From Acidimicrobiia bacterium (GTDB lineage Bacteria > Actinomycetota > Acidimicrobiia > IMCC26256 > JACDBD01): a DNA stretch of 64,000 nucleotides. Below the pieces are notes generated by a model. It was not told the origin of the DNA. It ran no database searches and saw nothing but the letters and a program-made list of their open reading frames with translations. The position numbers were made by a program, and so were the translations under genes. Below, piece by piece: positions 886 through 64,000 of the stretch. The stretch spans positions 3,787 through 67,786 of the forward strand of contig JBPCMN010000085.1 in assembly GCA_051002235.1 (NCBI GenBank). The letters run 5' to 3'. How positions within the stretch are numbered: position 1 is the stretch's first letter; each line of letters begins with the position of its first letter.

Positions 886-888
886 GGC

Positions 889-1662
889 GTGCAGCTCGAT
901 CTGGCGACCGTCCTCCTCCAGTGGTCGACCGGCGGGCTGCTGTTCTGCTGGGTGACGACGCGCCGCCGCGAGGTGGGCCCGGGGTACGGGTGGTTGCTCC
1001 GAGGTGTCTTCCTCGTGCTCGCGGCGGGCAGTGTCGTGGCCGGTCGGGTCACGGGCGACGGGACGAGCGAGGTGGTGCGCGACCTCGGCGCCATGGGCGT
1101 GGTCGCGGGCGCCGCGGTCGCATTGACGCGGTCGATCACGCGACGCGGCGGCGCAACCCGCGGCGTCGAGTTTCCGCCATCGCTGGACCTGGTGGCGCCG
1201 GTGGCCGGACTGGTCGGGCTGGCGGCGGCGGCGGCCGCCGCCGGCGGTCCGTACCCGCTGAGCCTGGCACGCGTGGTGGTCGGTGCACTGTTCCTGGGCG
1301 CGGTCACCGACGCGATGCTGCTGGGACACTGGTACCTGGTGCAGCCGGGGCTGGACCGTGCCCCCATCCGCCAGCTCGTGGTGCTGAGCACCGTCATCTG
1401 GCCGTTCGAGGTGGCCGCGCTGCTGTGGCCGACCGGGATGGCTCAGGTCTTGGACGGAACCATCGAAGACGGTTGGGACGGCCTGCTCGGTTGGACGTGG
1501 GCGGTGAGCGCGGCCACGACCATCGGGTTGCTCGTCCTCACGTGGCTCGCGCTCGGGGAGCGCTCGTACTCTGCCGTGATGGCGGCGACCGGGCTCCTCT
1601 ACCTCGCGATCCTTACCGCGTTCGGCACCGACCTCGTCGCCCGGGCGGCGCTGGCGGGATGA
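889..1662 (+). CDS. Polytopic membrane protein of unknown function (AMLLGHWYL motif)
   Basis: 257-aa ORF with about 7-8 hydrophobic segments; GTG 3 nt after the upstream stop; GC-rich third codon positions. Confidence 0.75.
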   Translation: MQLDLATVLLQWSTGGLLFCWVTTRRREVGPGYGWLLRGVFLVLAAGSVVAGRVTGDGTSEVVRDLGAMGVVAGAAVALTRSITRRGGATRGVEFPPSLDLVAPVAGLVGLAAAAAAAGGPYPLSLARVVVGALFLGAVTDAMLLGHWYLVQPGLDRAPIRQLVVLSTVIWPFEVAALLWPTGMAQVLDGTIEDGWDGLLGWTWAVSAATTIGLLVLTWLALGERSYSAVMAATGLLYLAILTAFGTDLVARAALAG

Positions 1663-1696
1663 ACCCGCGTTCAGCCGAGGCTGAGTAAGGCCCGAC

Positions 1697-1702
1697 TACT
1701 AT
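1697..1702 (+). promoter_or_regulatory. -10 element (TACTAT) of the wzm operon; TCAGC-CGAG-GCTGA palindrome at 1671-1684 over the expected -35
   Basis: TANNNT hexamer followed by 7 nt and ATG(1710), the spacing seen at many other genes in this window. Confidence 0.55.
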
Positions 1703-1709
1703 CGACACC

Positions 1710-1766
1710 ATGCTCGTGTCGCGCGCCACTGCGTCGCGCCCGACGGTGCCGGCGACGACGGCATGA
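1710..1766 (+). CDS. Putative leaderless upstream ORF (18 aa, MLVSRATASRPTVPATTA) overlapping the wzm start
   Basis: ATG 7 nt after TACTAT; its TGA (1764-1766) overlaps the wzm ATG (1763-1765) as ATGA. Confidence 0.4.
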   Translation: MLVSRATASRPTVPATTA

Positions 1767-2587
1767 CGCGGGTGGCTGAGTACTCACAGGCGCGAGAGCT
1801 CGCGGTCAACCTCACGCTGCGAGAACTGCGCGGCCGGTACAAGCGGTCCGTGCTGGGTTGGACGTGGTCGCTGCTCAACCCGCTGGCCAGCGTCGTGATC
1901 TACTCGATGGTCTTCTCGTTCTTCCTCAAGATCGAGCCCCCCGTCGGCGAGCCCAGCGGCCTCCACAGCTTCGTCCTCTTCCTCCTCTGCGGCCTGCTCC
2001 CGTGGAACTTCCTCTCCAGCGGCGCTAACGCTGCGATGGGGGCGCTGGTCGGGAACGGCAACCTCATCAAGAAGGTGTACTTCCCTCGCGAGATCCTGGT
2101 GGGGTCGGCGGTGGCGGCGCACGTCATCACGCTGCTCATCGAGCTCGGAGTCCTCGTGGTGGTGTTCCTCATCGGGGGGAACATGGTGCTTCCTTGGATT
2201 CCGGTCGTTCTCGGTCTGATCATCATCCAGACCGTGCTTGTCGCCGGCGCCGGACTCGTGCTCAGTGTCCTCAACGTGTACTTCCGCGACGTGCAGCACT
2301 TCGTGCCGATCGCGCTGCAGGCGCTCTTCTACGCGACCCCGATCGTGTATCCGATCCGGTTCGTGCCCGATTCCGCGGACGTGTTCGGGGTGGGGATACC
2401 GGTGGGGGTCCTGTACCGACTCAACCCGATGGTCCACCTGGTCGAGGCGTACCGCGATGCCTTCTACGATCTGCGGTTCCCGACCGCAGGCTCCGTCGCC
2501 TACCTGCTGGCGTGGGCCGCCGCCATGCTCCTCTTCGGGCTGTGGGTGTTCTCCCGTCTCGACCGGCGTCTGGCCGAGGAAGTGTGA
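1763..2587 (+). CDS. wzm: ABC-2 polysaccharide export permease
   Basis: RELRGRYKRSVLGWTWSLLNPL, NGNLIKKVYFPRE, VYFRDVQH, FYATPIVYP and LNPMVH motifs; about 6 TM segments; directly upstream of wzt. Confidence 0.93.
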   Translation: MTRVAEYSQARELAVNLTLRELRGRYKRSVLGWTWSLLNPLASVVIYSMVFSFFLKIEPPVGEPSGLHSFVLFLLCGLLPWNFLSSGANAAMGALVGNGNLIKKVYFPREILVGSAVAAHVITLLIELGVLVVVFLIGGNMVLPWIPVVLGLIIIQTVLVAGAGLVLSVLNVYFRDVQHFVPIALQALFYATPIVYPIRFVPDSADVFGVGIPVGVLYRLNPMVHLVEAYRDAFYDLRFPTAGSVAYLLAWAAAMLLFGLWVFSRLDRRLAEEV

Positions 2588-2589
2588 CC

Positions 2590-3801
2590 ATGGACCCAGC
2601 GGCCATCACGGTTGCCGACGTCTCGAAGCAGTATCGCCTCTACCACGAGCGCAACCAGTCGCTGAAGGCGTCGGTATTGCGGGGACGCCGCGCCCGGTAC
2701 GAGGAGTTCTGGGCTCTGCGCGACGTCACCTTCGAAGTCCCGGAGGGAGCGACGTTCGCGCTCGTGGGCGACAACGGGTCGGGCAAGACGACCTTGCTCA
2801 AGTGCATCGCCCGCATCCTGCGCCCCGACGAGGGCCGGATCGCGGCGCGGGGCAAGATGTCGACCCTCCTCGAGCTGGGGGCGGGGTTCCACCCCGAGCT
2901 CTCGGGCCGTGACAACGTCTATCTCAACGGCTCCATCCTCGGCCTCCGCAAGCGCCAGATCACCGAGCGGTTCGACGAGATCGTCGACTTCGCCGGGCTC
3001 GAGGAGTTCATCGACATCCCGGTGAAGAACTACTCGTCGGGAATGTACGTGCGGCTGGGGTTCTCGGTGGCGATCAACGTCGATCCCGACATCCTGCTGG
3101 TCGACGAGATTCTGGCCGTCGGCGACGCCGAGTTCCAACGGAAGTGCCTCGAGAAGTTCGACGAGCTCCAGTCGCGGAACAAGACGATCGTCATCGTCAC
3201 CCACTCGCTCGATCAGGTGCGCAACCTCTGCGACACGGCGGCGTGGCTCGACCACGGTTCCCTCCACCGCCTCGGTCCGGCGGCCGAGGTCATCGACGAG
3301 TACCTCACCGAGGGCCACACCGAGCGTGTCGCCGACGGCGACCACGGTGCGCGCTGGGGCTCGGGCGAGGCTCGCATCGAGCAGATCGAGCTCCTCGACG
3401 CGTCCGGGGAGCCGGTCAAGCGGGTGCGAACCGGCGACACGGTCGTCTTCCGGCTCCATTACCAGTGCGACACGCACATCGAGCGCCCGATCTGGGGGAT
3501 CGCGCTCTTCACCTTCGACGGGGTCTTGGTCACCAGCCCCAGCACTCGCGAGGCCGGACTCGTCCCCGACGCCGTCGATCCCGGCAGCGCGGGATACCTC
3601 GACCTGCGGGTCGAGCGGCTTGTGCTGCTCCCCGGCACCTACGACATCAGTGCGTCGCTGATGAACTACACGCGCTCCCACGAGTACGACATGCGCCACC
3701 GGGCTTTCCGTTTCGACGTCGAGCTGGGCGACCCCCACGAGGAGCTCGGTTTCATGTCGCTCGGCGGTGTCTGGGAGGGCGACGTGCTCGACGACCGATG
3801 A
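2590..3801 (+). CDS. wzt: ABC polysaccharide export ATPase with C-terminal Wzt_C (carbohydrate-binding-type) domain
   Basis: Walker A GDNGSGKT, signature YSSGMYVRLGF, Walker B LLVDE, GDAEFQRKC; ~150-aa C-terminal extension (RTGDTVVFRL...LLPGTYDIS). Start re-assigned to ATG 2590. Confidence 0.93.
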   Translation: MDPAAITVADVSKQYRLYHERNQSLKASVLRGRRARYEEFWALRDVTFEVPEGATFALVGDNGSGKTTLLKCIARILRPDEGRIAARGKMSTLLELGAGFHPELSGRDNVYLNGSILGLRKRQITERFDEIVDFAGLEEFIDIPVKNYSSGMYVRLGFSVAINVDPDILLVDEILAVGDAEFQRKCLEKFDELQSRNKTIVIVTHSLDQVRNLCDTAAWLDHGSLHRLGPAAEVIDEYLTEGHTERVADGDHGARWGSGEARIEQIELLDASGEPVKRVRTGDTVVFRLHYQCDTHIERPIWGIALFTFDGVLVTSPSTREAGLVPDAVDPGSAGYLDLRVERLVLLPGTYDISASLMNYTRSHEYDMRHRAFRFDVELGDPHEELGFMSLGGVWEGDVLDDR

Positions 3802-6296
3802 GGCGGCTCCCGGCGCGTCCCGAGACGCCGGGGAGGGTTTCGGTCGTCATCGTGAACCACCGCGGCGCCCACGACACGCTCGAGGCGTTGGCGGGGGTGC
3901 AGGCACTCGACTGGCCCCGGGACGGACTCGAGGTCGTCGTGGTCGACAACGGCTCCGGTGACGACAGCGCCGCGCGCATCCGGGCGGACTTCCCGGAGGC
4001 CCGCCTGGTCGAGCTGGACGAGAACCGGGGCTTTGCCGCCGGCTGCAACGCCGGGGTCGACGTCGCCGGGGGCGAGTACGTGGCGTTCCTCAACAACGAC
4101 GCTCGCCCGGACGCCGGCTGGCTCGACGCCGCGGTGGCGGTGCTGCGGCGCGACGGCTCGATCGCCGGCGTCGCCAGCAAGGTGCTCGACTGGGAGGGGC
4201 ACACGATCGACTTCGTCGACGCCGGCATGGCCTTCTACGGGCACGGCTTCAAGCTTCGAGCGGGCGAGCCCGACGACGGATCCGGCGACGACGAGGCCGA
4301 CGTGCTCTTCGCCTCGGGCACCGCCATGGTGGCGCGGGCCGAGACCTTCCGAAAGGTCGGTGGCTTCGACGAGCGCTACTTCCTGTTCTTCGAGGACGTC
4401 GACCTCGGGTGGAGACTGTGGCTGCTGGGCCACCGCATCCGCTACGTGCCGACCTCCCTCGTGTTCCATCGCCACCACCGGACCATGGCGCGCTCCGGGG
4501 ACTGGTGCCACCAGTACCTGCTGGAGCGGAACGCGCTGTTCACGATCTTCAAGAACTACTCCGACGAGAGCCTGCGCACGACCCTCCCGGCAGCGCTCGC
4601 GCTGGCGATCAGGCGCGGCCTCACGCTCGGTGGTGACGACCCGCACGCCCTCGACCTGGCCCGCGGTGCCCACGACGACGCCGGCCGCATGGAGGTCGAC
4701 AAGTTCACGCTGGCGGGCGCATACGCGGTGGACGGCTTTCTCGAGGCGCTCCCTCACCTGGCCGAGGACCGGGCGGCGCTCCAGGCCGCCCGGCAGCGGC
4801 CCGACGCCGAGTTGTTTCCCCTCTTCCGGCTCCCGATGTTCGCCAACATCGGCGATGCTTCCTTCGTGCACGGGTTCCGGGCCGCCGTCGACGCGCTGGG
4901 GGTGGAAGGGATGTTCTCGCCCCGCCACCGGGTGCTGGTCGTCACCGGCGACGTGCTCCAGCCCAAGATGGCCGGACCGGCGATCCGGGCCTGGCACATC
5001 GCCGGCGCGCTCGCCCGCGAGCACGATGTCCAGCTGGTCACGACGAACCAGTGCCGGCTGCATCATCCCGAGCTCGGGGTGCGGCACGTCCAAGACCGCG
5101 AGTTGGGCGGCCTCGAGGCCTGGGCCGACGTCGTCATCTTCCAGGGCAACCTCATGCGCCAGCACCGCGACCTCCGAAACTCGAAGAAGGTGCTCGTCGC
5201 CGACATCTACGACCCGTTCCATCTCGAGGTGCTCGAGCAGGCCCGCGATCTCGAACCGCGGGATCGGCTGCACCTGGCGCGTCTGTCCACCGACGTGCTC
5301 AATGAGCAGCTCATGCGGGGCGACTTCTTCCTCTGTGCCAGCGAGAAGCAGCGCGACTTCTGGCTCGGCCAGCTGGCGGCCGTCGGCCGGATCAACCCGA
5401 TGACCTACGACCTGGACGAGAGCATGGGCGCGCTCGTGAAGGTCGTGCCATTCGGCGTGAGCGACGACCCCCCGCGTCACACCCGCCCGGCGCTGCGCGG
5501 GGTCGTACCCGGGATCGGCCCGGACGACAAGATCGTGTTGTGGGGTGGTGGCGTCTACAACTGGTTCGATCCCCTCACCCTGTTGCGAGCCGTCGACAAG
5601 CTCCGCCGCCGCCTCCCGAACGTGCGCCTCTACTTCCTGGGCATGCAGCACCCCAACCCCGACGTCGCTCCGATGCAGATGGCCGCCGAGACGGTGGCCC
5701 TCGCCGACGAGCTCGGGCTGGCCGGCAGCCACGTGTTCTTCAACGACGACTGGACCGACTACGACGAGCGTCAGAACTACCTCCTGGAAGCGGACGTCGG
5801 CGTCAGCACCCACCTCGACCACGTCGAGACCGCCTTCTCGTTCCGCACCCGGATCCTCGACTACATGTGGGCGAACCTGCCGATCGTCGCCACCGCCGGC
5901 GACGCGCTGGCCGGGGTCGTCGAGGAGCGGGGAATCGGTCTCACGGTGCCCGCCGGTGACGTCGACGCGCTCGAGGCGGCGCTCTATCGGCTGCTCGACG
6001 ACGCCGACCTGCACCAGGCGTGCCGCGACGAGCTCGCTCGGGTGGCGCCCGAGTACCGCTGGTCGAAGGTCTTGGAGCCGCTGCTCGCGTTCTGCCGGGC
6101 ACCGGCCCGGGCCCCCGATCTGCTGGACCCGGAGACGGCGGTGACGATCCGCAACGCCTTGCCGCTGAACGCCTGGCGGAAGCAGCGCCGGCGGCGGGAC
6201 CTGCGGGTGGCGATGGCCTACCTCAGGGGAGGGCAGCTGCGGGTGCTCGCAGCGAAGGCGAGGCTTCGGCTCGCCGAGCTCCTGCGACGGTCCTGA
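3798..6296 (+). CDS. Fused GT2-GT4 glycosyltransferase (~832 aa)
   Basis: N-terminal GT2 (VSVVIVNH, VVVDNGSGD, FLNNDA, FEDVDLGWR); C-terminal GT-B (MAGPAIR, LWGGGVYNWFDP, RTRILDYMWANLPIV). ATG 3798 overlaps the wzt stop. Confidence 0.9.
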   Translation: MRRLPARPETPGRVSVVIVNHRGAHDTLEALAGVQALDWPRDGLEVVVVDNGSGDDSAARIRADFPEARLVELDENRGFAAGCNAGVDVAGGEYVAFLNNDARPDAGWLDAAVAVLRRDGSIAGVASKVLDWEGHTIDFVDAGMAFYGHGFKLRAGEPDDGSGDDEADVLFASGTAMVARAETFRKVGGFDERYFLFFEDVDLGWRLWLLGHRIRYVPTSLVFHRHHRTMARSGDWCHQYLLERNALFTIFKNYSDESLRTTLPAALALAIRRGLTLGGDDPHALDLARGAHDDAGRMEVDKFTLAGAYAVDGFLEALPHLAEDRAALQAARQRPDAELFPLFRLPMFANIGDASFVHGFRAAVDALGVEGMFSPRHRVLVVTGDVLQPKMAGPAIRAWHIAGALAREHDVQLVTTNQCRLHHPELGVRHVQDRELGGLEAWADVVIFQGNLMRQHRDLRNSKKVLVADIYDPFHLEVLEQARDLEPRDRLHLARLSTDVLNEQLMRGDFFLCASEKQRDFWLGQLAAVGRINPMTYDLDESMGALVKVVPFGVSDDPPRHTRPALRGVVPGIGPDDKIVLWGGGVYNWFDPLTLLRAVDKLRRRLPNVRLYFLGMQHPNPDVAPMQMAAETVALADELGLAGSHVFFNDDWTDYDERQNYLLEADVGVSTHLDHVETAFSFRTRILDYMWANLPIVATAGDALAGVVEERGIGLTVPAGDVDALEAALYRLLDDADLHQACRDELARVAPEYRWSKVLEPLLAFCRAPARAPDLLDPETAVTIRNALPLNAWRKQRRRRDLRVAMAYLRGGQLRVLAAKARLRLAELLRRS

Positions 6297-53032: not shown

Positions 53033-53100
53033 TGCGGCCACGCTAACTGCCGGCCCCTGCCGCGGCGCCTTCGGGAGCGGCCGGTAGCGTGGTGCAGGAC

Positions 53101-54977
<1,877 letters not shown>

Positions 54978-54978
<1 letters not shown>

Positions 54979-55075
54979 GTCGCACTCGCTCGGCGGCAGG
55001 GTACCTGCCGCCGCCCTTCGGGGCGCTCGCCGCTCCCGCGCAATCCTGGCTGTAGGCCGGTGGATGGCAGGCCTT
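54978..55075 (+). repeat. Interspersed hairpin repeat, copy 3
   Basis: Starts at the last base of the kinase stop codon; hairpins CGGCGGCAGG/CCTGCCGCCG, CGCCC-TTCG-GGGCG and AGGCC/GGCCT. Confidence 0.95.
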
Positions 55076-55117
55076 CCGGCGGCGGTAAGGTCCGGCCTCT
55101 CAAATTCGGGAGGTCAG

Positions 55118-56002
55118 ATGGGTGCGCTCGACGGGCGAATCGCGATCATCACCGGCGCCGGCCGCGGCCTTGGGCGCGAGCATGCGCTGCTGTTCGCGTC
55201 CGAAGGTGCACAGGTGGTCGTGAACGACCTCGGCGGTGACATGGACGGGACCGGCGACGACCGCGCTCCCGCGCAACAGGTTGTCGACGAGATCAAGGAG
55301 ATGGGCGGGGAGGCGGTCGCCAACGTCGACAATGTCGCCGACTGGGAGGGCGCCCAGCGCCTGATCAACACGGCCATCGAGACCTTCGGCGATCTCCACG
55401 TGCTCGTCAACAACGCCGGCATCCTGCGTGACCGCGTGCTCGTGAACATGACCGAGCAGGAGTGGGACGCGGTTATCCACGTCCACCTCAAGGGCCATTT
55501 CTGCCCCACGCGATTCGCGGCCGGCTACTGGCGGGAGCAGACCAAGGCGGGCAAGGAGGTGAAGGCCTCCATCATCAACACGTCGTCGACCTCCGGCCTC
55601 CTCGGCAACACCGGCCAGGCCAACTACGGCGCCGCCAAGGCCGGCATCGCCACCTTCTCCAATATCGCGGCGATGGAGCTGACGCCCCGCTACGGCGTGC
55701 GCTCCAACGCCATCGCGCCTGCCGCCCGCACCCGGCTCACCGAGCAGACCCCGGGCCTGGAGGACGCGGTCAAGCCGCCCGACGACCCGGGCGCGTTCGA
55801 CACCTGGGACCCGGCCAACGTCTCGCCGCTGGTCGCCTACCTCGCCACCGAGAGCTGCCCCTTCACCGGGACGACGTTCTTCGTGCAGGGTGGCGTCGTC
55901 CGGCTGTTCCAGCCCTGGACCATGACCGAGACGATCGACAAGGGCGACCGCTGGACGGTCGCCGAGCTCGAGAAGGAGATGGTCAAGCTCCAGAAGTCGT
56001 GA
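55118..56002 (+). CDS. SDR oxidoreductase (3-hydroxyacyl-CoA dehydrogenase/MFE-2-like)
   Basis: ITGAGRGLGR, VVNDLG, NNAGILRD, GQANYGAAKAG, NAIAP; GGGAGG RBS before ATG 55118. Confidence 0.92.
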   Translation: MGALDGRIAIITGAGRGLGREHALLFASEGAQVVVNDLGGDMDGTGDDRAPAQQVVDEIKEMGGEAVANVDNVADWEGAQRLINTAIETFGDLHVLVNNAGILRDRVLVNMTEQEWDAVIHVHLKGHFCPTRFAAGYWREQTKAGKEVKASIINTSSTSGLLGNTGQANYGAAKAGIATFSNIAAMELTPRYGVRSNAIAPAARTRLTEQTPGLEDAVKPPDDPGAFDTWDPANVSPLVAYLATESCPFTGTTFFVQGGVVRLFQPWTMTETIDKGDRWTVAELEKEMVKLQKS

Positions 56003-56061
56003 CCATCCGTGGGCGCATCCGCGGCCCCGGTTAGATTTCCCGGTCGACCAACACGGAGGCG

Positions 56062-56820
56062 ATGGCTGTGACTGACGGCGAGTTCCTCCTCGACGGCTTC
56101 ACCTTCCTGCTCGCGTTCGCGATCGTCCTGCCCCTCGGCCTGCTCGCGCTGGTCGTGTTGGTGCTGGCGGGCGGCCGCGACATCGACACCACCGGCAAGC
56201 GCACGTTCACCCTCTACGTCGTCACGGTGAGCTTCGTCGCGCTGTTCACCGCGCTGATCGCGAGCACCGCGGTCGTGAGCTCGTTGACCGAGAAGATCAA
56301 GGACGACTCCTCCGAGGAGTTCAACTTCGACGACGAGGACTTCGAAGACTTCGAGGACGAGGACTTCGACTTCGACACCGGCGGCGTGAGCGAGAACGAC
56401 AAAGTGCTGCGCGGGGTCGTCCAGGGCGCCCTCGCCCTGCTCGCCGCCGGGGCGGTCCTCCTGTTCCACCACCGCCGTCGCCGCGAGTACAGCGCCGAGC
56501 CGGGCTTCGACGGCAGCGCCGCCTGGCGGGCCGACCGCGCCTACATCTACGTCGTGTGCTTCACCGCGGTGCTGATCTTCCTGTTCGCCGCCGGCTTCGG
56601 GTCGTACAACATCTTCAAGCTGGCCGGACCGGGGGTGTTCGACTCCGGCGACTCGTCCGGCGTCCGCAAGAGCGCCCTTCAGGAGCTGCTCACGCTGGCC
56701 TGGCTCGCGCTCGCCGCCCTCGGAATCTTCCGGTACTACTGGCTCCAGGCGAACCCGAGCCCGGCGACCGGCCCAGCCAAGGCGGCTCCAGCGAAGAAGG
56801 CACCGGCCAAGAAGCGGTAG
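56062..56820 (+). CDS. Membrane protein (DUF5671-like) with acidic loop and PAKK tail
   Basis: About 5-6 TM segments; YVVTVSFVALF / YIYVVCF repeated pattern; Asp/Glu/Phe-rich loop; GGAGG RBS. Confidence 0.7.
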   Translation: MAVTDGEFLLDGFTFLLAFAIVLPLGLLALVVLVLAGGRDIDTTGKRTFTLYVVTVSFVALFTALIASTAVVSSLTEKIKDDSSEEFNFDDEDFEDFEDEDFDFDTGGVSENDKVLRGVVQGALALLAAGAVLLFHHRRRREYSAEPGFDGSAAWRADRAYIYVVCFTAVLIFLFAAGFGSYNIFKLAGPGVFDSGDSSGVRKSALQELLTLAWLALAALGIFRYYWLQANPSPATGPAKAAPAKKAPAKKR

Positions 56821-57726
56821 ATGCCCGTCAGCGATCTCGACGAGCGGCGGCATCCGGTCGAGCACGCCGACGCTCACTGGAGCGACTCGCTCTACTTCAA
56901 CGGCTTCGATCGCGAGACGGGTGTGTGCTTCCTCACCCGGATGGCGGTGCTGCCCAATCAGCCGGGTGCCAACGCGCTGTTCATCGCCTGGGTCGACGGC
57001 GTGCCCGGCTACGGCTACTACCGAGAGCTCGACCATCTTCCGAGTGCCGATTGGGACGCGACCACGATCGAGGGCGTCGGCTACCGGATGCTCGAGCCGC
57101 TCCGCCGCTGGACGCTGAAGCTCGACGACGGCGACAGCAAGGCGTTCCTCGAGTTCGACGGGGTCGGGCCGTGTTTCGACTACGCCGACAACGCGGCGCC
57201 GCTGCCGAAGCCGGTCGCGTGGGGTCACTACGAGCAGAGTGGGACCCTCCGGGGCGACCTCGTCCTCCATGGGAATCCGATCGAATTCGACGGCGTCAGT
57301 CAGCGCGACCACTCGTGGGGATGGCGCGACTGGAGCGGGGTGCGCGAGTGGCACTGGGTGACCGGGCTCTTCGGCACCGAGCGGGCGTTCAACCTCTTCC
57401 ACGTCGTCGACGCCGCCGGCAGCGTCAGCGTCAACGGGTACGTCCTCGACCGCGGCGAGGTACACCCGATCGTCCGGGCCGACCGGCGCACGCGCGAGGG
57501 CGAGGGGCGGGTTCCCGAGGGTTACGAGCTCGCGCTCGAGGTCGCCGGGGGTGACCGCTTCGAGATCTCCGCCGAGCGCTCGCACGCGTCGCTGCCGCTC
57601 CAGCCCGGCACCACCACCGTGCAGGAGGCGCCGATGCGCCTCGTCGGCGGCGGCCTGTCCGGCGTCGGCATCTACGAGCTCTTGTTCAACGAGGCCATCC
57701 CTCCGACGACTCCACCCGGGAAATGA
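56821..57726 (+). CDS. Uncharacterised two-barrel enzyme-like protein (AttH/CrtC/tocopherol-cyclase-like fold suspected)
   Basis: HWSDSLYF, HYEQ.G, QRDHSWGWRDW, WHW, GIYE motifs; ATG abuts the upstream stop. Confidence 0.7.
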   Translation: MPVSDLDERRHPVEHADAHWSDSLYFNGFDRETGVCFLTRMAVLPNQPGANALFIAWVDGVPGYGYYRELDHLPSADWDATTIEGVGYRMLEPLRRWTLKLDDGDSKAFLEFDGVGPCFDYADNAAPLPKPVAWGHYEQSGTLRGDLVLHGNPIEFDGVSQRDHSWGWRDWSGVREWHWVTGLFGTERAFNLFHVVDAAGSVSVNGYVLDRGEVHPIVRADRRTREGEGRVPEGYELALEVAGGDRFEISAERSHASLPLQPGTTTVQEAPMRLVGGGLSGVGIYELLFNEAIPPTTPPGK

Positions 57727-57740
57727 CCCGCGGCACCCCC

Positions 57741-57774
57741 CGGGTGGGCTAGTTCGCGCTAGCCCGGAGACCCG
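57741..57774 (+). terminator. Putative intrinsic terminator hairpin
   Basis: CGGGT-GGGCTAG-TTCGCG-CTAGCCC-(GGAG)-ACCCG followed by a T-richer tract, 15 nt after a stop. Confidence 0.4.
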
Positions 57775-57952
57775 ATCTTGATTCCGTTTGCCCCGGTTTC
57801 GCGGCGTTCGGTGGCGGAAGTGCGCGCCTGGCGGCGCCCACGATGCCGCGTCCACTCTGTCCGGCTCGTGGCGGTTCGCACCCGTGATCATGCACATGTC
57901 ACCGCTCGGTCGCGCCATTGGCCGTTCGGGGGTCGCTTCGTACCCTCCCGAC

Positions 57953-58183
57953 ATGCGACGACCTCCCCACGGCGGCACCCACCGACCCGGACTCGTCCGT
58001 CCCGGCAGCGGCTACGGCCGCCCGGCCGGCCGGCCGGGCCCCGACCTCGCCGCCCAGGCCGCCGCCCGCGACCACCAGGCCTGGTGGGAGCTTTCGGCCG
58101 ACCCGGTGGGCGCGGTGGTGTTCGCCGCCACCGCCGCCACCGACGCGACAAAGCCCGGGCTGATCGAGCGACCCGCCAACTAG
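57953..58183 (+). CDS. Putative small leaderless protein (76 aa)
   Basis: TACCCT(57941-57946)-N6-ATG, the same hexamer as the ligA promoter; no recognisable domain. Confidence 0.45.
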   Translation: MRRPPHGGTHRPGLVRPGSGYGRPAGRPGPDLAAQAAARDHQAWWELSADPVGAVVFAATAATDATKPGLIERPAN

Positions 58184-58239
58184 CCTGCCCGGACCGGCGC
58201 GGCGCACCCCCGCGGCCGCGCCGCCAGGAGCGGAGCACA

Positions 58240-59778
58240 GTGGGACCCTCGACGACCGGCCGGACCGCGCCCGGCCGCGCCACCCCACCACACGCCGCCG
58301 GGGGCGACGCCCCGACCGTCCTCGCTGACTACTCCGGCGTCGAGGAGGTCCCGGCAGTCGCCTGGCCTCTCCTCCTGCGCGAGCGCCTCCGGCGCCGGAT
58401 GCGGGAGAGCGACCGCTACCGCTGGTGGGTGCTGTGGACGGTCCTGGCCGGCCTGTTCGCGGCCGGGTTCACGATCACCGTCCTCGCGGTCTCGCTGCCC
58501 ACCATCGCCCGCGATCTGCACGCCGATCCCACCACCCTGACCTGGATCGTCACCGGCCCGTTCCTCGCCCACGCGCTGGGCATGCCGCTGCTCGGCAAAG
58601 TCGGCGACGTCTACGGCCACCGCCGGGTGTACCTGGTCGGCTTCGGGCTCTTCACCGTCTTCACCGGCCTCACCGCGCTGGCATGGAACGCCCCGTCGCT
58701 GATCATCGTGCGCACCATCGGCGCGCTCGAGGGCGCGGCCACCGGACCGGCGTCGATGGCGCTCATCATGCACGCCTTCCCGGCTGAGGATCGGGTGAAG
58801 GCGATGGGGTGGTGGGCGCTCGTGGGCGCCGGCGCCCCAGTGATCGGGCTGGTGGCCGGCGGGCCGATCGTCGACGCGTTCGGGTGGAGGTGGCTGTTCG
58901 TCGCCCAGGTGCCCCTCGCGCTCAGCGCCCTGGTCGCGGCGGCGGTGCTGCTGCACGAGACGCCCCGGACGCCCCGGGTGTCGATCGACGTGCGGGGGGC
59001 GGTCGCGCTGGCGGGCGCGACGGTGCTCCCGCTCCTGGCCCTCCAGCTCGGGCGCAGCCAGGGCTGGACCGGTCCGGTGCCGGGCGGGCTGCTCGCGCTG
59101 GGCGCGGTCTTCCTGATCGTGTTCGTGCGGGTCGAGCGACGGGCCCGCGAACCGCTGCTGCCCCTCGACTTCTTCCGCCGCCGCAACTTCACCGCGTCGT
59201 TGCTGGCCCAGAGCCTCTCGCAGTTCGCCTACATGGGCGGTTTCATCGTCAGCCCGCTGCTCATGCAGAACCGCTTCGGCTACACGGTGGCGGGGACCTC
59301 GCTCATCATGCTGTGCCGCCCGTTGTCGTTCAGCCTGTCGTCCCCGGTTTCGGGGTATGTCACGGTTCGGGTCGGGGAGCGACGAGCCGCGGTCACCGGC
59401 ACCGTGCTGGTCGTTGTCTCGATGGCGTGTTTCGCGCTCGCGGCCGCCCAGGAGTCGGTGCCGCTGGTCGTGCTCGCGCTGTTGCTCTCGGGGCTGGGCC
59501 TCGGGGCGTCGTCGCCCTCGCTGATCACGTCGGCGGCCAACGCGGTGGAGCCCGAGCACCTGGGCGTGGCCAACGCCGCCCAGCAGATGGTGACGCTCAT
59601 CGGGGCGGTGGCGGGGATGCAGGTCCTGGCGACGATCCAGGCCGGTGGCGGGGGTGACGGACGGTTCGCCCTCGCCTACCTGATCGGCCTGGCGGTGGCG
59701 GTGCCCGCGGTCGTGGCGGCCGGGTTCGTCCGCTCGAGCGCGCGCGGCGCCAAGCTGCGGGTTGCCCACGCCGCGTGA
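58240..59778 (+). CDS. MFS transporter (DHA2/EmrB-like), paralog 1
   Basis: GKVGDVYGHRRVYLVG motif A, RTIGALEG, G..AGGPIVDAFGWRWLF; AGGAG RBS before GTG 58240. Confidence 0.9.
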   Translation: MGPSTTGRTAPGRATPPHAAGGDAPTVLADYSGVEEVPAVAWPLLLRERLRRRMRESDRYRWWVLWTVLAGLFAAGFTITVLAVSLPTIARDLHADPTTLTWIVTGPFLAHALGMPLLGKVGDVYGHRRVYLVGFGLFTVFTGLTALAWNAPSLIIVRTIGALEGAATGPASMALIMHAFPAEDRVKAMGWWALVGAGAPVIGLVAGGPIVDAFGWRWLFVAQVPLALSALVAAAVLLHETPRTPRVSIDVRGAVALAGATVLPLLALQLGRSQGWTGPVPGGLLALGAVFLIVFVRVERRAREPLLPLDFFRRRNFTASLLAQSLSQFAYMGGFIVSPLLMQNRFGYTVAGTSLIMLCRPLSFSLSSPVSGYVTVRVGERRAAVTGTVLVVVSMACFALAAAQESVPLVVLALLLSGLGLGASSPSLITSAANAVEPEHLGVANAAQQMVTLIGAVAGMQVLATIQAGGGGDGRFALAYLIGLAVAVPAVVAAGFVRSSARGAKLRVAHAA

Positions 59779-61271
59779 GTGATACGCGGGACCGCCCCTC
59801 CCTCCTTGTCGAGGGTGAGCTCTACGAGGCGGCGCCCTGGTGGATCCGGCGCGCGCCCACGGGACTGCGCCACGTGCACGAGCGCGAGTCGTACCGCTGG
59901 TGGGTCCTCGTCACCGTCCTGTCGGGCATGTTCGCCACCGGGCTCACGATCACGGTGCTGACAACCGCGGTGCCCGTCATACGCGACGACTTCGGCGCCT
60001 CGCTCCCGTCGCTGTCGTGGGTCGTGGGGGCGCCGTTCCTGTTCCGGTCGATCTTCGTACCGGTCTTCGGTAAGACGGGAGATCGTCTGGGCCGCCGCCG
60101 GATGTGGTTGCTGGGCTTCGCGGTGTCGGCGACCGCCTCGCTGTTCTGCGGCTTCGCCCCCAACGTCGGGTTTCTGATCCTGTTCCGAGCCCTGTCTGCG
60201 ATCGGTAGCGCCGCGGTCATCCCGAGCGCGCTCGCGTTGATCGCGGTGGAATTCGAACCCGAAGACCGCGTCAAGGCCCTGGGCTGGTGGTCGGCCACGA
60301 TCGCGGTGGCCCCTCTGCTCGGCGTCATCATCGGCGGGTTCGTGGTCGAGGCGTTCGGGTGGCGCTGGATCTTCTTCGGCCAGTTCCCGTTCAGCGTGAT
60401 CGCGCTCGGCCTCGGCCTCGTGGTGCTCCACGAGTCGACGGGCGATACGGAGGAGCAGTTCGACTTCACCGGGTCGGTCCTCTCGATCGTCGGGCTCGGC
60501 GCGCTGCTGTTGGTCTTCAACCGGGGCATCGCCGGCGACTGGGGTTGGACCTCGCTCCCGCTCGTCACCACCGCGGTGATCGCCGTGACCGCCCTGGTGG
60601 TGTTCGTCCGGGTCGAGCTGCGGTCGCCCGCCCCCGTGCTGCCGGTGAACTACTTGCGGCGCCGCCGGTTCGCGGCCGCGGTCGGGGCCAACTTCGCCGC
60701 CAACTTCGCCTACATGGGCGGGTTCTTCATCACCTCGGTCATGCTTCACGACACCCAGTTGTTCGGGTACCGCACCGATCAGGTCGCGCTGGCCATCTCG
60801 CCGCGAGCGGCGTCGCTGGGGATCATGGGACCGATCGGCGGCTACATGGCCGCCCGCTACGGCGGCCGGCGGATGGCGACCATCGGCATGCTGCTGATCG
60901 TCGCATCGATGATCGCCCTGGCCTTGACCACCGACGGGTCGCCGTACCTCTACATCCTCCCGGGGCTGGTGCTCTCCGGCTTCGGGCTCGGGCTGGTCGC
61001 ACCGCCGTCGGCCGCGACCGTCACCAACGAGGCGGCCGAGGCTGACCTGTCGGCGGCCAGCGGCGCGCTCAACATGGGCGCGTCGATTGGATCAGCGATG
61101 GGCATCGCCACCATGTCGGCGGTGCTCACCACCGCAGCGACGACCTCGGGGCATCCCGGCGCGGGCGCCTTCTCGGCCGCCTTCCTCTTCGGCGCCGCCC
61201 TTTCCGCCATCGGGCTGTTCGCCGCCCTCAACCTCGGCCGCGACACCGGGGGCGCCACGGCGCGAGCATGA
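59775..61271 (+). CDS. MFS transporter (DHA2/EmrB-like), paralog 2
   Basis: GKTGDRLGRRRMW, FRALSAIG, GGFVVEAFGWRWIFF; GTG overlaps the paralog 1 stop. Confidence 0.9.
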   Translation: MSDTRDRPSLLVEGELYEAAPWWIRRAPTGLRHVHERESYRWWVLVTVLSGMFATGLTITVLTTAVPVIRDDFGASLPSLSWVVGAPFLFRSIFVPVFGKTGDRLGRRRMWLLGFAVSATASLFCGFAPNVGFLILFRALSAIGSAAVIPSALALIAVEFEPEDRVKALGWWSATIAVAPLLGVIIGGFVVEAFGWRWIFFGQFPFSVIALGLGLVVLHESTGDTEEQFDFTGSVLSIVGLGALLLVFNRGIAGDWGWTSLPLVTTAVIAVTALVVFVRVELRSPAPVLPVNYLRRRRFAAAVGANFAANFAYMGGFFITSVMLHDTQLFGYRTDQVALAISPRAASLGIMGPIGGYMAARYGGRRMATIGMLLIVASMIALALTTDGSPYLYILPGLVLSGFGLGLVAPPSAATVTNEAAEADLSAASGALNMGASIGSAMGIATMSAVLTTAATTSGHPGAGAFSAAFLFGAALSAIGLFAALNLGRDTGGATARA

Positions 61272-61278
61272 GCGCACC

Positions 61279-62613
61279 ATGATCGACGTCCCCGAGACCC
61301 GGTACGCCACGAGCACCGGTGGCGCCAAGATCGCCTATCAGACCGTCGGCGACGGGCCCCGAGACCTCGTCTACGCGATGAGCGTGGTCTCGAACATCGA
61401 GGTGGCGTGGGAGAACCCAACGATCGCCCGATTCTTCAGACGTCTTGCATCGCTCGGCCGGCTGATCCTCTTCGACAAGCGCGGCTCCGGCGCGTCGGAC
61501 TCGACCGAGGGCCCGGCGACGCTGGAGCACCGCCTGGACGACTTGCGCGCCGTCCTCGATGCCGTCGGGTCGGACGACACGGTGCTGTTCGGCTCCTCCG
61601 AGGGCGGTGCGACGTGCGCGACCTTCGCGGCAACGTACCCCGACCGTACCCGCGCGCTCGTCCTGTACAGCTCGGCGGTGGTGTCGATCCGGGACGACGA
61701 GTGCCCGTGGGCGTGGACGCGCGAGATCTTCGACGCCATCGATGCGAACATCGATACCAACTGGGCGACGGGTGAGGCGCTGGGTTTGATGAACCCGAGT
61801 GTCGGTGACGACGAGCGCGAGCGGCGATGGTACGCGCGGTACTGGCGGCTGTCGGCGAGTCCCGCCCGGGCGAAGGCCATGTTCCGGCTCAACCAGCAGA
61901 TCGACATCCGCCCCGTCCTCGGTTCGATCTCGGTTCCGGCGCTCGTCCTCCACCGCACGGACGAGACGTGGATGACAGTCGAGTTCGGCCGCTACGCGGC
62001 CGCCAAGATCCCGGGGGCGAGGCTCGTGGAGCTACCTGGCGCCGACCACGAGCCCTGGCTCGGTGACGCCGAGGCGGTGCTTGCCGAGATCAGCGAATTC
62101 GTCACCGGCGTGCGCGAATCGCCTGAGCCCGACCGTGTCCTCGCGACCGTGCTGTTCACCGACATCGTCGACTCGACCGGCAGGGCATCCGCGCTCGGTG
62201 ACCGCCGATGGAAGGAGCTACTCGACCGCCACGACTCCGTGGTCCGTCAGCAGGTCGAACGGGCGCGGGGGACCTACGTCAAATCGACTGGAGACGGCGC
62301 GCTTGCGACCTTCGATGGTCCCGCCCGGGCGATCCGCTGCGCGGGCGCGATCCACCAGTCGTTGCGCGGGCTCGGCCTACAGGTCCGCGCCGGTCTCCAT
62401 ACGGGTGAGGTGGAGCTCGGCGGCAACGATGTCGCCGGGATCGCGGTGCACCTGGCGGCCAGGGTGGTGGACCAGGCTGAACCGGACGAGGTGCTGGTGT
62501 CGCGCACGGTGGTCGATCTCGTCGCCGGGTCCGGACTCGAGTTCGCCGACCGCGGAGCTCACGAGCTCAAGGGCGTCCCCGGCGAGTGGCGGTTGTACGC
62601 GGTGAATCCGTGA
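61279..62613 (+). CDS. Alpha/beta-hydrolase plus class III adenylate cyclase fusion (LipJ/Rv1900c-like), paralog 1
   Basis: FDKRGSG, GSSEGG, GADHEPW; TVLFTDIVDST, KSTGDG, GLHTGEVE, DVAGIAVHLAARV, LKGVPG. Confidence 0.92.
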   Translation: MIDVPETRYATSTGGAKIAYQTVGDGPRDLVYAMSVVSNIEVAWENPTIARFFRRLASLGRLILFDKRGSGASDSTEGPATLEHRLDDLRAVLDAVGSDDTVLFGSSEGGATCATFAATYPDRTRALVLYSSAVVSIRDDECPWAWTREIFDAIDANIDTNWATGEALGLMNPSVGDDERERRWYARYWRLSASPARAKAMFRLNQQIDIRPVLGSISVPALVLHRTDETWMTVEFGRYAAAKIPGARLVELPGADHEPWLGDAEAVLAEISEFVTGVRESPEPDRVLATVLFTDIVDSTGRASALGDRRWKELLDRHDSVVRQQVERARGTYVKSTGDGALATFDGPARAIRCAGAIHQSLRGLGLQVRAGLHTGEVELGGNDVAGIAVHLAARVVDQAEPDEVLVSRTVVDLVAGSGLEFADRGAHELKGVPGEWRLYAVNP

Positions 62614-63938
62614 TCGATGTCCCCGAGACCCGGTACGCCAAGAGCGGCGACGCTCGCATCGGGTACCAGGTCGTGGGCGAGGGTCCTCCGGATCTCGTGT
62701 ACGCCCCGAGCTTCCTGTCGAACATCGACGTCTTCTGGGAGAACCCGGCGGCGGGCCACTTCCTGAGGGGCCTCGCTGCGTTCAGCCGGCTGATCGTGTT
62801 CGACCGGCGGGGGGTCGGTACGTCCGACGCCTGGGACGACACGATCACGGTCGAGCATCGCACCGACGATCTCGCTGCCGTGCTCGACGCCGCCGGGAGC
62901 CAGTCGACCGTGCTGTTCGGATCCTCCGAAGGGGGCTCTACGTGCGCGACGTTCGCCGCGCTGTATCCCGAGCGGGTCTTGGCGCTCGTGATGTTCAGCC
63001 CGTTACTCCCGGTGCTGGAGGAGCAGTTCCCGTGGGCCTGGGCTCCGGAGGTTTTCGACGCCTTCGAGGCCGGCGTCGACGAGGCGTGGGGAACGGGGGC
63101 TGGGTTGGAGCTGATCAATCCCAGCCTCGCCGGCGACGAGCGTATGCGGCGGTGGTACGCGCGCTACTGGCGACTGTGCGCAAGCCCCGACCGGGCCAAG
63201 GCGCTCATGCGGCAGAACCGCCGACTCGACGTGGGGCCGATCCTGTCGACGATCTCCGTCCCCACGCTGGCGATCCATCGCGTCGACGAACTCTGGGTCA
63301 ATGTCGGGTACAGCCGGTACGCGGCCGCCGAGATCCCCGGGGCTCGGCTCGTCGAGCTCCCCGGCGCCGACCACGAGCCGTGGGTCGGGGATGCCGACGT
63401 GGTGCTCACCGAGATCCGCGAGTTCGTGACCGGCAGGCGCGAGCCCTCCGAGCCGGATCGCGTCCTCGCGACGGTCGTGTTCACCGACCTGGTCGGATCG
63501 ACGGCCCTGGCCTCACGGCTCGGCGACCGGCGTTGGCGTGAGTTGCTCGATGAGCACGACCGCGTGGTGGGTCAGGAGGTCGATGAGTTCCGCGGTCGCC
63601 TCGTGAAGTCGACTGGTGACGGGGTCCTGGCGACGTTTGACGGGCCCGCTCGAGCGGTGCGGTGCGCGCGGTCGATTCGCGACGCGCTTCGCGCGCTCGG
63701 GCTCGAATCACGCGCCGGTGTCCACACCGGCGAGGTCGAGTTACGGGGCGACGACGTTGGTGGCATCGCCGTCCACCTCGGCGCACGCGTCGCCGCGCTC
63801 GCCGGCGCTGGCGACGTGCTCGTCTCGCGCACGGTTGTCGACCTCGTCGCCGGGTCCGGACTCGAGTTCGCCGACCGCGGAGCTCACCAGCTCAAGGGCG
63901 TCCCCGGCGAGTGGCAGCTCTACGCGGTGGAGCGCTGA
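62610..63938 (+). CDS. Alpha/beta-hydrolase plus class III adenylate cyclase fusion, paralog 2
   Basis: FDRRGVG, GSSEGG, GADHEPW; TVVFTDLVGST, KSTGDG, GVHTGEVE, DVGGIAVHLGARV, LKGVPG; GTG overlaps the paralog 1 stop. Confidence 0.92.
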   Translation: MIDVPETRYAKSGDARIGYQVVGEGPPDLVYAPSFLSNIDVFWENPAAGHFLRGLAAFSRLIVFDRRGVGTSDAWDDTITVEHRTDDLAAVLDAAGSQSTVLFGSSEGGSTCATFAALYPERVLALVMFSPLLPVLEEQFPWAWAPEVFDAFEAGVDEAWGTGAGLELINPSLAGDERMRRWYARYWRLCASPDRAKALMRQNRRLDVGPILSTISVPTLAIHRVDELWVNVGYSRYAAAEIPGARLVELPGADHEPWVGDADVVLTEIREFVTGRREPSEPDRVLATVVFTDLVGSTALASRLGDRRWRELLDEHDRVVGQEVDEFRGRLVKSTGDGVLATFDGPARAVRCARSIRDALRALGLESRAGVHTGEVELRGDDVGGIAVHLGARVAALAGAGDVLVSRTVVDLVAGSGLEFADRGAHQLKGVPGEWQLYAVER

Positions 63939-63951
63939 GCAGGCGGATTCG

Positions 63952-64000
63952 TCACTCGCTCCAGCGCACGCCGAAGATCCGGACCGGCTCGTCGAAGCCC
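63952..64000 (-). CDS. 3' end of a convergent gene, probably another class III nucleotide cyclase
   Basis: Minus strand reads ...GFDEPVRIFGVRWSE*, resembling the (L)KGF.EPV..F C-terminus of class III cyclases; only 15 residues visible. Confidence 0.45.
   Translation of the reverse strand, partial: GFDEPVRIFGVRWSE

What the first reader, a model, noticed from the sequence alone, without database searches (positions are those of the whole stretch)
58240..64000. MFS-MFS-hydrolase/cyclase-hydrolase/cyclase operon facing a probable third cyclase: candidate transport-coupled cAMP sensing module
Seen: two paralogous MFS genes sharing the unusual N-terminal motif (E/R)xYRWWVLxTVL overlap by GTGA; 7 nt later come two overlapping hydrolase-cyclase genes, then a convergent gene ending like a cyclase. 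Both cyclases keep the two metal Asp, the ATP-specifying Lys and Asp, and the Arg, with His replacing the transition-state Asn. Both hydrolase domains keep G-S-S-E-G and a His (GADHEPW). Established: Rv1900c/LipJ has this architecture and the Asn-to-His change; class III cyclases work as dimers. Inference: paired transporters and paired cyclases may form heterodimers that move and sense one ester or lipid ligand and convert it to cAMP. I know of no described system with this layout.
Basis: partly seen in the sequence, partly recalled or inferred. Interest (0 to 1): 0.6.

Follow-up and report, generated by a model that had tools for sequence, protein, structure and literature searches.

The report
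Cyclase cassette behind conserved transporter genes
Two transporter genes are followed by two LipJ-type hydrolase-cyclase genes and a third cyclase, but the cyclases are a dispensable 3.5-kb cassette in a variable slot next to a conserved transporter, so this is an ordinary member of a known, widespread cyclase family and not a new transport-sensing system.

Summary
There are two paralogous DHA2-like MFS genes with a GTGA overlap. Seven nt later come two LipJ/Rv1900c-type hydrolase-cyclase genes (HC1, HC2), also with a GTGA overlap. All catalytic residues are present, with His in place of the transition-state Asn. The convergent gene, read from the rest of the contig, is a third cyclase (SCO4226-like domain plus cyclase domain).

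The conserved unit is the kinase/SDR–MFS1–[slot]–SCP2–ferredoxin–gatC backbone, found in all 40 loci sampled from nine other families of the order; none has a cyclase in the slot. Cyclases fill the slot only in the window's own family and are repeatedly lost. A same-genus genome (91.5% nt identity) lacks exactly the 3,490 nt that carry all three cyclases. Two other genomes keep only remnants.

Of 80 hydrolase-cyclase loci from many phyla, only two have an MFS within 6 kb, and one of those is this slot. HC1 and HC2 show no complementary loss of residues that would mark an obligate heterodimer. The genome holds 26 cyclase domains.

The scan has met LipJ-like cyclases before on other DNA, with similar verdicts. 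Verdict: new member of a known kind, low interest.

The parts
58240..59778 (+). MFS1, a 512-aa DHA2-like MFS transporter. This is the conserved core gene of the neighbourhood.
   Evidence: Pfam MFS_1 E=5e-64. Best NCBIfam hit is TIGR00711 at 194 bits, below the 230 cut-off. Shine-Dalgarno AGGAGCGGAG lies at 58226-58235. Orthologues at 50-98% identity sit in the same backbone across ten families of the order.
59775..61271 (+). MFS2, a 498-aa DHA2 MFS transporter and old paralogue of MFS1 (36-38% identity). Its start overlaps the MFS1 stop (GTGA).
   Evidence: TIGR00711 at 237 bits, above the 230.2 cut-off. The MFS1-MFS2 pair is also present in G001, G003, G004, G005, G007, G030, G031 and in five loci of families f8, f9, f11 and f14.
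61279..62613 (+). HC1, a 444-aa LipJ-like alpha/beta-hydrolase plus class III adenylyl cyclase.
   Evidence: Pfam Abhydrolase_1 plus Guanylate_cyc. NF058673 LipJ end to end at 426 bits, cut-off 800. 1YBT E=5e-49. AlphaFold2 model pLDDT 92.6; the cyclase domain matches 1YBU at TM 0.95 and the hydrolase domain matches P. fluorescens aryl esterase at TM 0.88. Residues.
62610..63938 (+). HC2, a 442-aa tandem paralogue of HC1 (67% identity). Its start overlaps the HC1 stop (GTGA).
   Evidence: (433 bits). In the tree HC1, HC2 and G011:C267 form a clade with support 100.
63952..64000 (-). 3' end of the convergent 268-aa SCO4226-like (PF14026) plus class III cyclase gene. The whole gene is G000:C85:67741-68544, equivalent to window positions 63955-64758, so it runs off the window.
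   Evidence: An orthologue (78% identity) occupies the same position in G003, which is an unpublished genome.
61276..64000 (.). Part inside the window of a 3,490-nt presence/absence segment (C85:65062-68551). It carries HC1, HC2 and the third cyclase and is absent from the same-genus genome G001.
   Evidence: blastn of L003 against C85: positions 1-3387 match 61677-65061 and positions 3386-4612 match 68552-69774, at 91.5% and 89.7% identity.
61266..61274 (+). Left copy of the 9-nt direct repeat GCATGAGCG. The right copy lies at window-equivalent 64755-64763, outside the window. The two copies bracket the 3.49-kb segment.
   Evidence: These are the only two occurrences in C85:64001-69788. This fits deletion by microhomology in the G001 lineage, which is an inference.

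Best explanation
The region is the variable slot of a core-genome neighbourhood in an Acidimicrobiia order. The backbone is PASTA kinase / SDR – MFS1 – [slot] – SCP2(-) – ferredoxin – gatC.

In this genome the slot holds the old paralogue MFS2 plus a 3.5-kb cyclase cassette. The cassette consists of two tandem LipJ-like hydrolase-cyclases (HC1, HC2) and a convergent SCO4226-like cyclase.

HC1 and HC2 are most likely soluble, dimeric, ATP-specific class III adenylyl cyclases. Their N-terminal aryl-esterase-like domain, with an intact Ser-Asp/Glu-His triad, binds or hydrolyses a small ester or lactone and may modulate cAMP output.

They are probably transcribed by read-through from the MFS genes, because the gap is 7 nt and the neighbouring genes overlap. 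They are accessory, however. They belong to a family with 8-11 copies in this genome, whose members move, duplicate in tandem and are lost.

Shown: gene content, residues, fold, synteny, the indel and the remnants. Inferred: co-transcription, enzyme activities, and any regulatory role of the hydrolase domain.
For: Backbone and slot:
- The backbone is conserved in 40 of 40 loci from nine other families, none with a cyclase in the slot. Cargo there is nothing, MFS2, a convergent MFS_3, Calx-beta, GNAT or APH.
- Within the window's family the slot holds a hydrolase-cyclase in 9 genomes, a remnant in 2, the SCO4226-like cyclase alone in 1, and nothing in 5.
- The same-genus genome G001 lacks exactly 3,490 nt, bracketed by GCATGAGCG repeats.
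- G004 keeps 13 codons (MIEIPETRYAKSG) placed 7 nt after the MFS2 stop. The MFS2-HC junction is therefore old and the gene was later lost.

Family behaviour:
- The closest relative of HC1/HC2 (G011:C267, 68-71% identity) lies in an unrelated context and carries an in-frame TGA.
Among the best 80 loci, an MFS lies within 6 kb in only 2, and tandem hydrolase-cyclases occur in 3.
- The genome has 26 cyclase domains and 8-11 LipJ-like genes, including another tandem array on contig C55.

Protein:
- Catalytic sets are complete.
- The fold matches Rv1900c and aryl esterases.
Against: - An MFS gene directly followed, at 7-11 nt, by a hydrolase-cyclase occurs with two different clades of the family: the genus g6 clade after MFS1, and the HC1/HC2 type after MFS2. 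If these were independent events, they would hint at selection for the linkage. The AU test does not decide whether they share one origin (p=0.085).
- The junction has persisted since before two genera split.
- No expression data could be obtained.
Confidence: 0.65

Rival explanations
1. This is the first reader's reading: a functional transport-coupled sensing module. The MFS pair moves an ester or lipid-like compound. The hydrolase domains of HC1/HC2 sense or hydrolyse it and convert it into a cAMP signal.
For: - Tight operon-like packing.
- The MFS-to-hydrolase-cyclase order recurs in 9 genomes of the family, with two clades of the cyclase family.
- The junction is older than the g1/g4 split.
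- The lid of the hydrolase domain is the most variable part: 31% mean pairwise identity against 60% in the cyclase domain.
- PDB sequence hits include the hydrolase-receptors KAI2, HTL and D14.
Against: - MFS1 is kept without any cyclase in 40 of 40 loci of nine other families and in G001, G007, G009, G014 and G021.
- The cyclases are lost while the MFS genes stay.
- 78 of 80 hydrolase-cyclase loci elsewhere lack an MFS.
- Related genomes are not independent, so there are at most two gain events.
- A variable lid is usual in alpha/beta-hydrolases.
Confidence: 0.13
2. HC1 and HC2 work as a heterodimeric cyclase, and tandem pairs of this family are selected for that reason.
For: - Class III cyclases act as dimers (established knowledge).
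- Translational coupling through the GTGA overlap would favour equal amounts of the two proteins.
- Tandem pairs that fall into two sister subclades recur in G004:C50, G014:C35 and probably G000:C55.
Against: - Both proteins keep both metal Asp residues, Lys, Asp, His and Arg. There is none of the complementary degeneration seen in obligate heterodimers such as the mammalian C1/C2 domains (established knowledge).
- The Rv1900c cyclase domain crystallised as a homodimer (PDB 1YBT/1YBU; from my own knowledge of Sinha et al. 2005, a paper not held here).
- No multimer prediction tool was available.
Confidence: 0.15
3. This is an efflux-plus-esterase detoxification or resistance pair, or the MFS genes export the cAMP made next door.
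For: - The MFS proteins resemble antibiotic efflux pumps, and the hydrolase domain gives weak hits to macrolide esterases (EstT, EstX) and enol-lactonases.
- M. tuberculosis is reported to secrete cAMP (abstract of PMC3938503).
Against: - All these scores lie far below the families' cut-offs.
- The fusion to a fully intact cyclase is not explained by detoxification.
- The MFS genes occur order-wide without cyclases.
- Both MFS proteins lack the TM1 Asp of the canonical DHA2 motif.
Confidence: 0.04

Closest known systems
Mycobacterium tuberculosis Rv1900c / LipJ (PDB 1YBT, 1YBU; NCBIfam NF058673 'bifunctional lipase/adenylate cyclase LipJ')
   Same: - Same two-domain architecture, with an end-to-end match to the LipJ profile.
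- The cyclase domain is about 54% identical, at TM 0.95.
- His replaces the transition-state Asn. This is a family hallmark, seen in 52 of 57 relatives.
   Different: - Scores of 426 and 433 bits lie below the equivalog cut-off of 800.
- HC1 and HC2 keep the canonical substrate Lys where Rv1900c has Asn.
- They form a tandem pair behind MFS genes.
- The organism is an uncultured Acidimicrobiia bacterium, and the genome holds 8-11 paralogues.
Pseudomonas fluorescens aryl esterase, cofactor-free haloperoxidases and 3-oxoadipate enol-lactonase (PDB 1VA4, 1A8S, 2XUA)
   Same: The hydrolase-domain fold matches at TM 0.85-0.88. The Ser-acid-His triad has the same spacing.
   Different: Sequence identity is only 20-24%. 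The domain is fused to a cyclase. The substrate is unknown.
DHA2 (EmrB/QacA) family of MFS drug:H+ antiporters (TIGR00711)
   Same: This is the best-matching family for both transporters, and MFS2 scores above the cut-off.
   Different: MFS1 scores below the cut-off. Both proteins replace the TM1 motif LDxTIxNVALP with (F/L)TITVL…(L/V)P, which lacks the Asp. They are kept as a translationally coupled pair in several families.
Mycobacterium avium Ma1120 minimal class III cyclase (PDB 4WP3 and others)
   Same: Second-best cyclase-domain match, with the Lys-Asp ATP-specifying pair.
   Different: It has no hydrolase domain and has Asn instead of His.

Membership tests
LipJ/Rv1900c-type hydrolase-cyclase | N-terminal alpha/beta-hydrolase fold plus C-terminal class III cyclase homology domain in one polypeptide | tested here: met
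   Pfam; AlphaFold2 model and Foldseek.
LipJ/Rv1900c-type hydrolase-cyclase | Score above the NCBIfam NF058673 equivalog cut-off (800 bits) | tested here: not met
   426.3 bits (HC1) and 432.7 bits (HC2), aligned end to end over profile positions 6-449 of 449. They are family-level homologues, not equivalogs.
LipJ/Rv1900c-type hydrolase-cyclase | His at the transition-state Asn position | tested here: met
   AVHLAARV in HC1 aligns with AVHIGARV in 1YBT. His is found in 52 of 57 relatives.
LipJ/Rv1900c-type hydrolase-cyclase | Asn at the substrate-specifying Lys position (Rv1900c N342) | tested here: not met
   HC1 and HC2 have VKSTGDG where Rv1900c has VNTAGDG. The genus g6 slot clade does have Asn.
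LipJ/Rv1900c-type hydrolase-cyclase | Measured adenylyl cyclase and esterase activity | not testable with these tools
   Needs expression and assay.
Class III nucleotidyl cyclase, catalytically competent | Two metal-binding Asp, substrate Lys and Asp, transition-state Arg | tested here: met
   D295, D339, K335, D384 and R395 in HC1, and the aligned residues in HC2.
Obligate heterodimeric class III cyclase | Complementary loss of catalytic residues in the two partners | tested here: not met
   Both HC1 and HC2 keep every residue.
Alpha/beta-hydrolase, catalytically competent | Nucleophile in G-x-S-x-G, an acid after strand 7, and His after strand 8 | tested here: met
   GSSEG (Ser107), D228/E229, His257. 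The spacing matches the 1VA4-type esterases. The geometry in the model was not inspected.
DHA2 MFS (TIGR00711) | Score above the curated cut-off of 230.2 bits | tested here: inconclusive
   MFS2 scores 237.0 (met) and MFS1 194.4 (not met). A crude hydropathy scan finds 10-12 of the expected 14 peaks.
Conserved functional gene module (MFS plus hydrolase-cyclase) | Co-occurrence of the parts across independent lineages | tested here: not met
   No cyclase in the slot in 0 of 40 MFS1 loci from nine other families. An MFS within 6 kb in 2 of 80 hydrolase-cyclase loci. Repeated loss within the family.

The most novel reading that the evidence does not exclude
The many LipJ-like paralogues of these Acidimicrobiia form a repertoire of hydrolase-type small-molecule receptors in the manner of KAI2/D14. 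They have variable lids, and their nucleophile is Ser, Asp, Ala or Gly. The copies placed behind MFS1/MFS2 read out the compound that this transporter moves, so the operon would be a true transport-coupled cAMP sensor that was gained at least once and is kept where the ligand matters.
Probability: 0.1. Interest if true: 0.65.

Novelty: new member of a known kind. Interest (0 to 1): 0.22.

Why it matters
If the ordinary reading holds, the main value is as a caution and as annotation. LipJ-type cyclases are widespread, mobile accessory genes, and tight packing next to a transporter need not mean a shared function.

The locus also documents three things:
- a well-defined variable slot in an otherwise order-wide conserved neighbourhood;
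- a clean within-genus presence/absence polymorphism of three cyclase genes;
- a very high cyclase load, 26 domains in 2.6 Mb, in an uncultured soil actinobacterium.

That load makes the group a natural place to ask what the hydrolase domains of these cyclases sense.

Tried and rejected
- The promoter/terminator scan of 57000-64000 found no promoter. The three terminator-like sites inside MFS2 are no more than the shuffles give.
- Rfam on the 513-nt leader region gave only a sub-threshold c-di-GMP-II hit at E=0.39, which I reject.
- The AU test of whether the g6 slot cyclases and HC1/HC2 share one origin was inconclusive (p=0.085).
- The original Rv1900c paper (PMC549627) is not held. Statements about N342/H402 being dispensable and about half-of-sites asymmetry rest on my own knowledge. 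The residue identities themselves were checked on the 1YBT sequence.
- PMC2447327 is held only in part.
- The crude transmembrane count was not decisive.
- I considered a second MFS-cyclase pair on contig C9 and rejected it. The MFS there is fragmented and another gene lies in between.
- I considered recent horizontal transfer of the cassette. GC3 is only slightly lower (0.85-0.86 against 0.89-0.93), and the G004 remnant shows that the junction is old.
Full report
WHAT IS THERE

The window is G000:C85:3787-67786, from a 2.6-Mb, 89-contig, 97.7%-complete genome of about 70% G+C. Earlier notes and the titles of related records point to an uncultured Acidimicrobiia/Acidimicrobiales bacterium.

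On the plus strand lie four genes:
- MFS1, 58240-59778. Its GTG start is preceded by AGGAGCGGAG.
- MFS2, 59775-61271.
- HC1, 61279-62613.
- HC2, 62610-63938.

The MFS1/MFS2 and HC1/HC2 junctions are both GTGA overlaps. The MFS2/HC1 gap is 7 nt. Pfam calls MFS_1 twice and Abhydrolase_1 plus Guanylate_cyc twice.

The contig continues 2 kb past the window. The convergent gene is a 268-aa protein with an SCO4226-like domain (PF14026) and a class III cyclase domain, and it ends 13 nt from the HC2 stop.

THE PROTEINS

HC1 and HC2 are 67% identical. Both match NCBIfam NF058673 ('bifunctional lipase/adenylate cyclase LipJ') from end to end at 426 and 433 bits. That is below the equivalog cut-off of 800.

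The cyclase domain matches the Rv1900c structure sequence at E=5e-49. The alignment shows three things directly:
- the two metal-binding Asp residues;
- the canonical Lys, where Rv1900c has Asn;
- the shared His at the Asn position, followed by the Arg.

An AlphaFold2 model of HC1 has pLDDT 92.6. Its cyclase domain superposes on 1YBU at TM 0.95. Its hydrolase domain superposes on P. fluorescens aryl esterase, cofactor-free haloperoxidases and enol-lactonase at TM 0.85-0.88. The triad is Ser107 (GSSEG), D228/E229 and His257.

Both HC proteins keep all catalytic residues of both domains. There is none of the complementary degeneration that would mark an obligate heterodimer.

MFS1 and MFS2 are 36-38% identical and resemble DHA2 transporters. 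MFS2 scores above the TIGR00711 cut-off and MFS1 below it. Their shared YRWWVL…(F/L)TITVL motif is conserved in all orthologues. A canonical DHA2 paralogue in the same genome also has RRWWIL. The real peculiarity of the subfamily is the loss of the TM1 Asp of LDxTIxNVALP.

THE GENOME-WIDE PICTURE

The genome has 26 cyclase domains above the Pfam cut-off. It has 8 full-length LipJ-like genes plus 3 truncated ones. It also has five cNMP-binding proteins.

Contig C55 carries another tandem array of at least three LipJ-like genes. The two full-length copies have Ala in place of the hydrolase Ser.

The family is present in 24 of 24 same-family genomes, at 2-12 matches each.

NEIGHBOURHOOD WITHIN THE FAMILY

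Synteny mapping of 20 related loci shows one backbone: PASTA kinase – SDR – (two further genes) – MFS1 – [slot] – SCP2(-) – ferredoxin – gatC.

The slot content varies:

| Genomes | Slot content |
|---|---|
| G000 | MFS2 + HC1 + HC2 + SCO4226-like cyclase |
| G001, G004*, G007, G030, G031 | MFS2 only |
| G003* | MFS2 + SCO4226-like cyclase |
| G006, G010, G013, G015, G016, G024 (genus g6) | one intact hydrolase-cyclase directly after MFS1 |
| G018, G023 (genus g6) | the same gene, with broken reading frames |
| G012 | internally deleted remnant of that gene |
| G009*, G014, G021 | nothing |

Genomes marked * (G003, G004, G009, and also G005) are unpublished, so the claims resting on them need the depositors' permission.

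G001 is in the same genus and is 91.5% identical in DNA across the flanks. It differs from G000 by one clean 3,490-nt indel (C85:65062-68551) that holds exactly the three cyclase genes. The indel is bracketed by the only two copies of GCATGAGCG in the region.

G004* retains ATG plus 12 codons (MIEIPETRYAKSG), placed 7 nt after the MFS2 stop. The MFS2-HC junction therefore predates the split of these genera, and the cyclase was later deleted.

TREE

In a 57-sequence maximum-likelihood tree, the g6 slot genes form one clade (support 98). HC1, HC2 and G011:C267 form another (support 100), and the two clades are not sisters. An AU test does not reject joining them (p=0.085). One or two gains therefore both remain possible.

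G011:C267 is the closest relative of HC1 and HC2, and in the tree it pairs with HC2. It sits in an unrelated context with no MFS hit and carries an in-frame TGA.

WIDER TESTS

Of those stretches, 595 encode relatives. They come from Actinomycetota, Chloroflexota, Pseudomonadota, Methylomirabilota, Binatia, Dormibacterota, Bacteroidota and others, at 51-60% identity. Among the best 80 loci, only two have a DHA2-like MFS within 6 kb. One of those is the g6 slot itself; in the other the MFS lies 2 kb away. Three loci have tandem hydrolase-cyclases.

From the transporter side, MFS1 orthologues were found in 75 of 201 genomes of the order. In 40 loci from nine other families the backbone is kept, and none has a cyclase in the slot. 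The slot there is empty or holds MFS2, a convergent MFS_3 transporter, Calx-beta, GNAT or APH genes.

INTERPRETATION

The conserved entity is MFS1, often with MFS2, inside a core neighbourhood. The cyclases are cargo of a variable slot. They are confined to one family and have been lost repeatedly, including within the genus.

Co-transcription with the MFS genes is likely from the spacing, but it is not shown. Functional coupling is not excluded, because the junction is old and two cyclase clades occupy the equivalent position.

The hydrolase lid is the most variable part of the protein (31% mean pairwise identity against 60% in the cyclase domain). The nucleophile varies among paralogues (Ser, Asp, Ala, Gly). 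Both points fit a sensor role for the domain, but they are weak evidence.

EARLIER NOTES OF THIS SCAN

Earlier notes describe LipJ-like cyclases as tandem arrays and as mobile genes that land in unrelated operons. My results agree, but those notes are not independent evidence.

VERDICT

This is a new member of a known kind, of low interest.

Noticed in passing
G000:C55:5156-8118 (locus L065), minus strand: A second tandem array of at least three LipJ-like hydrolase-cyclase genes, the last one cut by the contig end. The two full-length copies have Ala instead of the hydrolase nucleophile Ser (GIADG, GVADG) but keep intact cyclase residues.
   Followed up: partly
whole genome G000: 26 class III cyclase domains above the Pfam cut-off, and five cNMP-binding proteins, in a 2.6-Mb genome. 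That is about ten cyclases per Mb, an unusually high load.
   Followed up: partly
window 58399-58520 and 59890-60010 (TM1 of MFS1 and MFS2): The MFS1/MFS2 subfamily replaces the canonical DHA2 TM1 motif LDxTIxNVALP with (F/L)TITVL…(L/V)P, so it lacks the membrane-embedded Asp. The change is conserved in all orthologues across the order. The MFS1-MFS2 pair, with overlapping stop and start, is kept in several families.
   Followed up: partly
window 53089-64000 and loci L149-L188: The backbone PASTA kinase/SDR – MFS1 – slot – SCP2(-) – ferredoxin – gatC is conserved order-wide. Its slot carries different cargo in different families: a convergent MFS_3 transporter, Calx-beta protein, GNAT or APH.
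   Followed up: yes
L019:5970-6180 (G012) and L004:9441-9600 (G004, unpublished): Decay products of slot cyclases. G012 has an internally deleted gene that keeps its first ~11 codons and last ~38 codons. G004 has a 13-codon 5' stub.
   Followed up: yes
window 57727-58239: A 513-nt, 75% G+C gap lies upstream of MFS1, with no convincing ORF and no Rfam match. A 97-nt island at 57953-58049 is 78% identical to the equivalent spacer of G004. Similar spacers of 500-700 nt precede MFS1 in its relatives.
   Followed up: partly
G000:C9:60340-64036 (locus L064): A fragmented DHA2-like MFS, apparently a pseudogene in two frames, lies about 1.1 kb from another LipJ-like gene and is divergent to it. A 160-aa ORF sits between them.
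   Followed up: partly
L016:4928-6259 (G011:C267): The closest relative of HC1 and HC2 (68-71% identity; the tree pairs it with HC2) has an in-frame TGA and Asn instead of His at the transition-state position. tblastn finds no MFS in this 10-kb locus. I did not annotate its neighbouring genes.
   Followed up: partly
window 56821-57726: A DUF7065/DUF7064 protein (Rv3169 family) and an unassigned 252-aa membrane-like protein (56062-56820) lie between the SDR gene and MFS1. Both are present in only some relatives.
   Followed up: no
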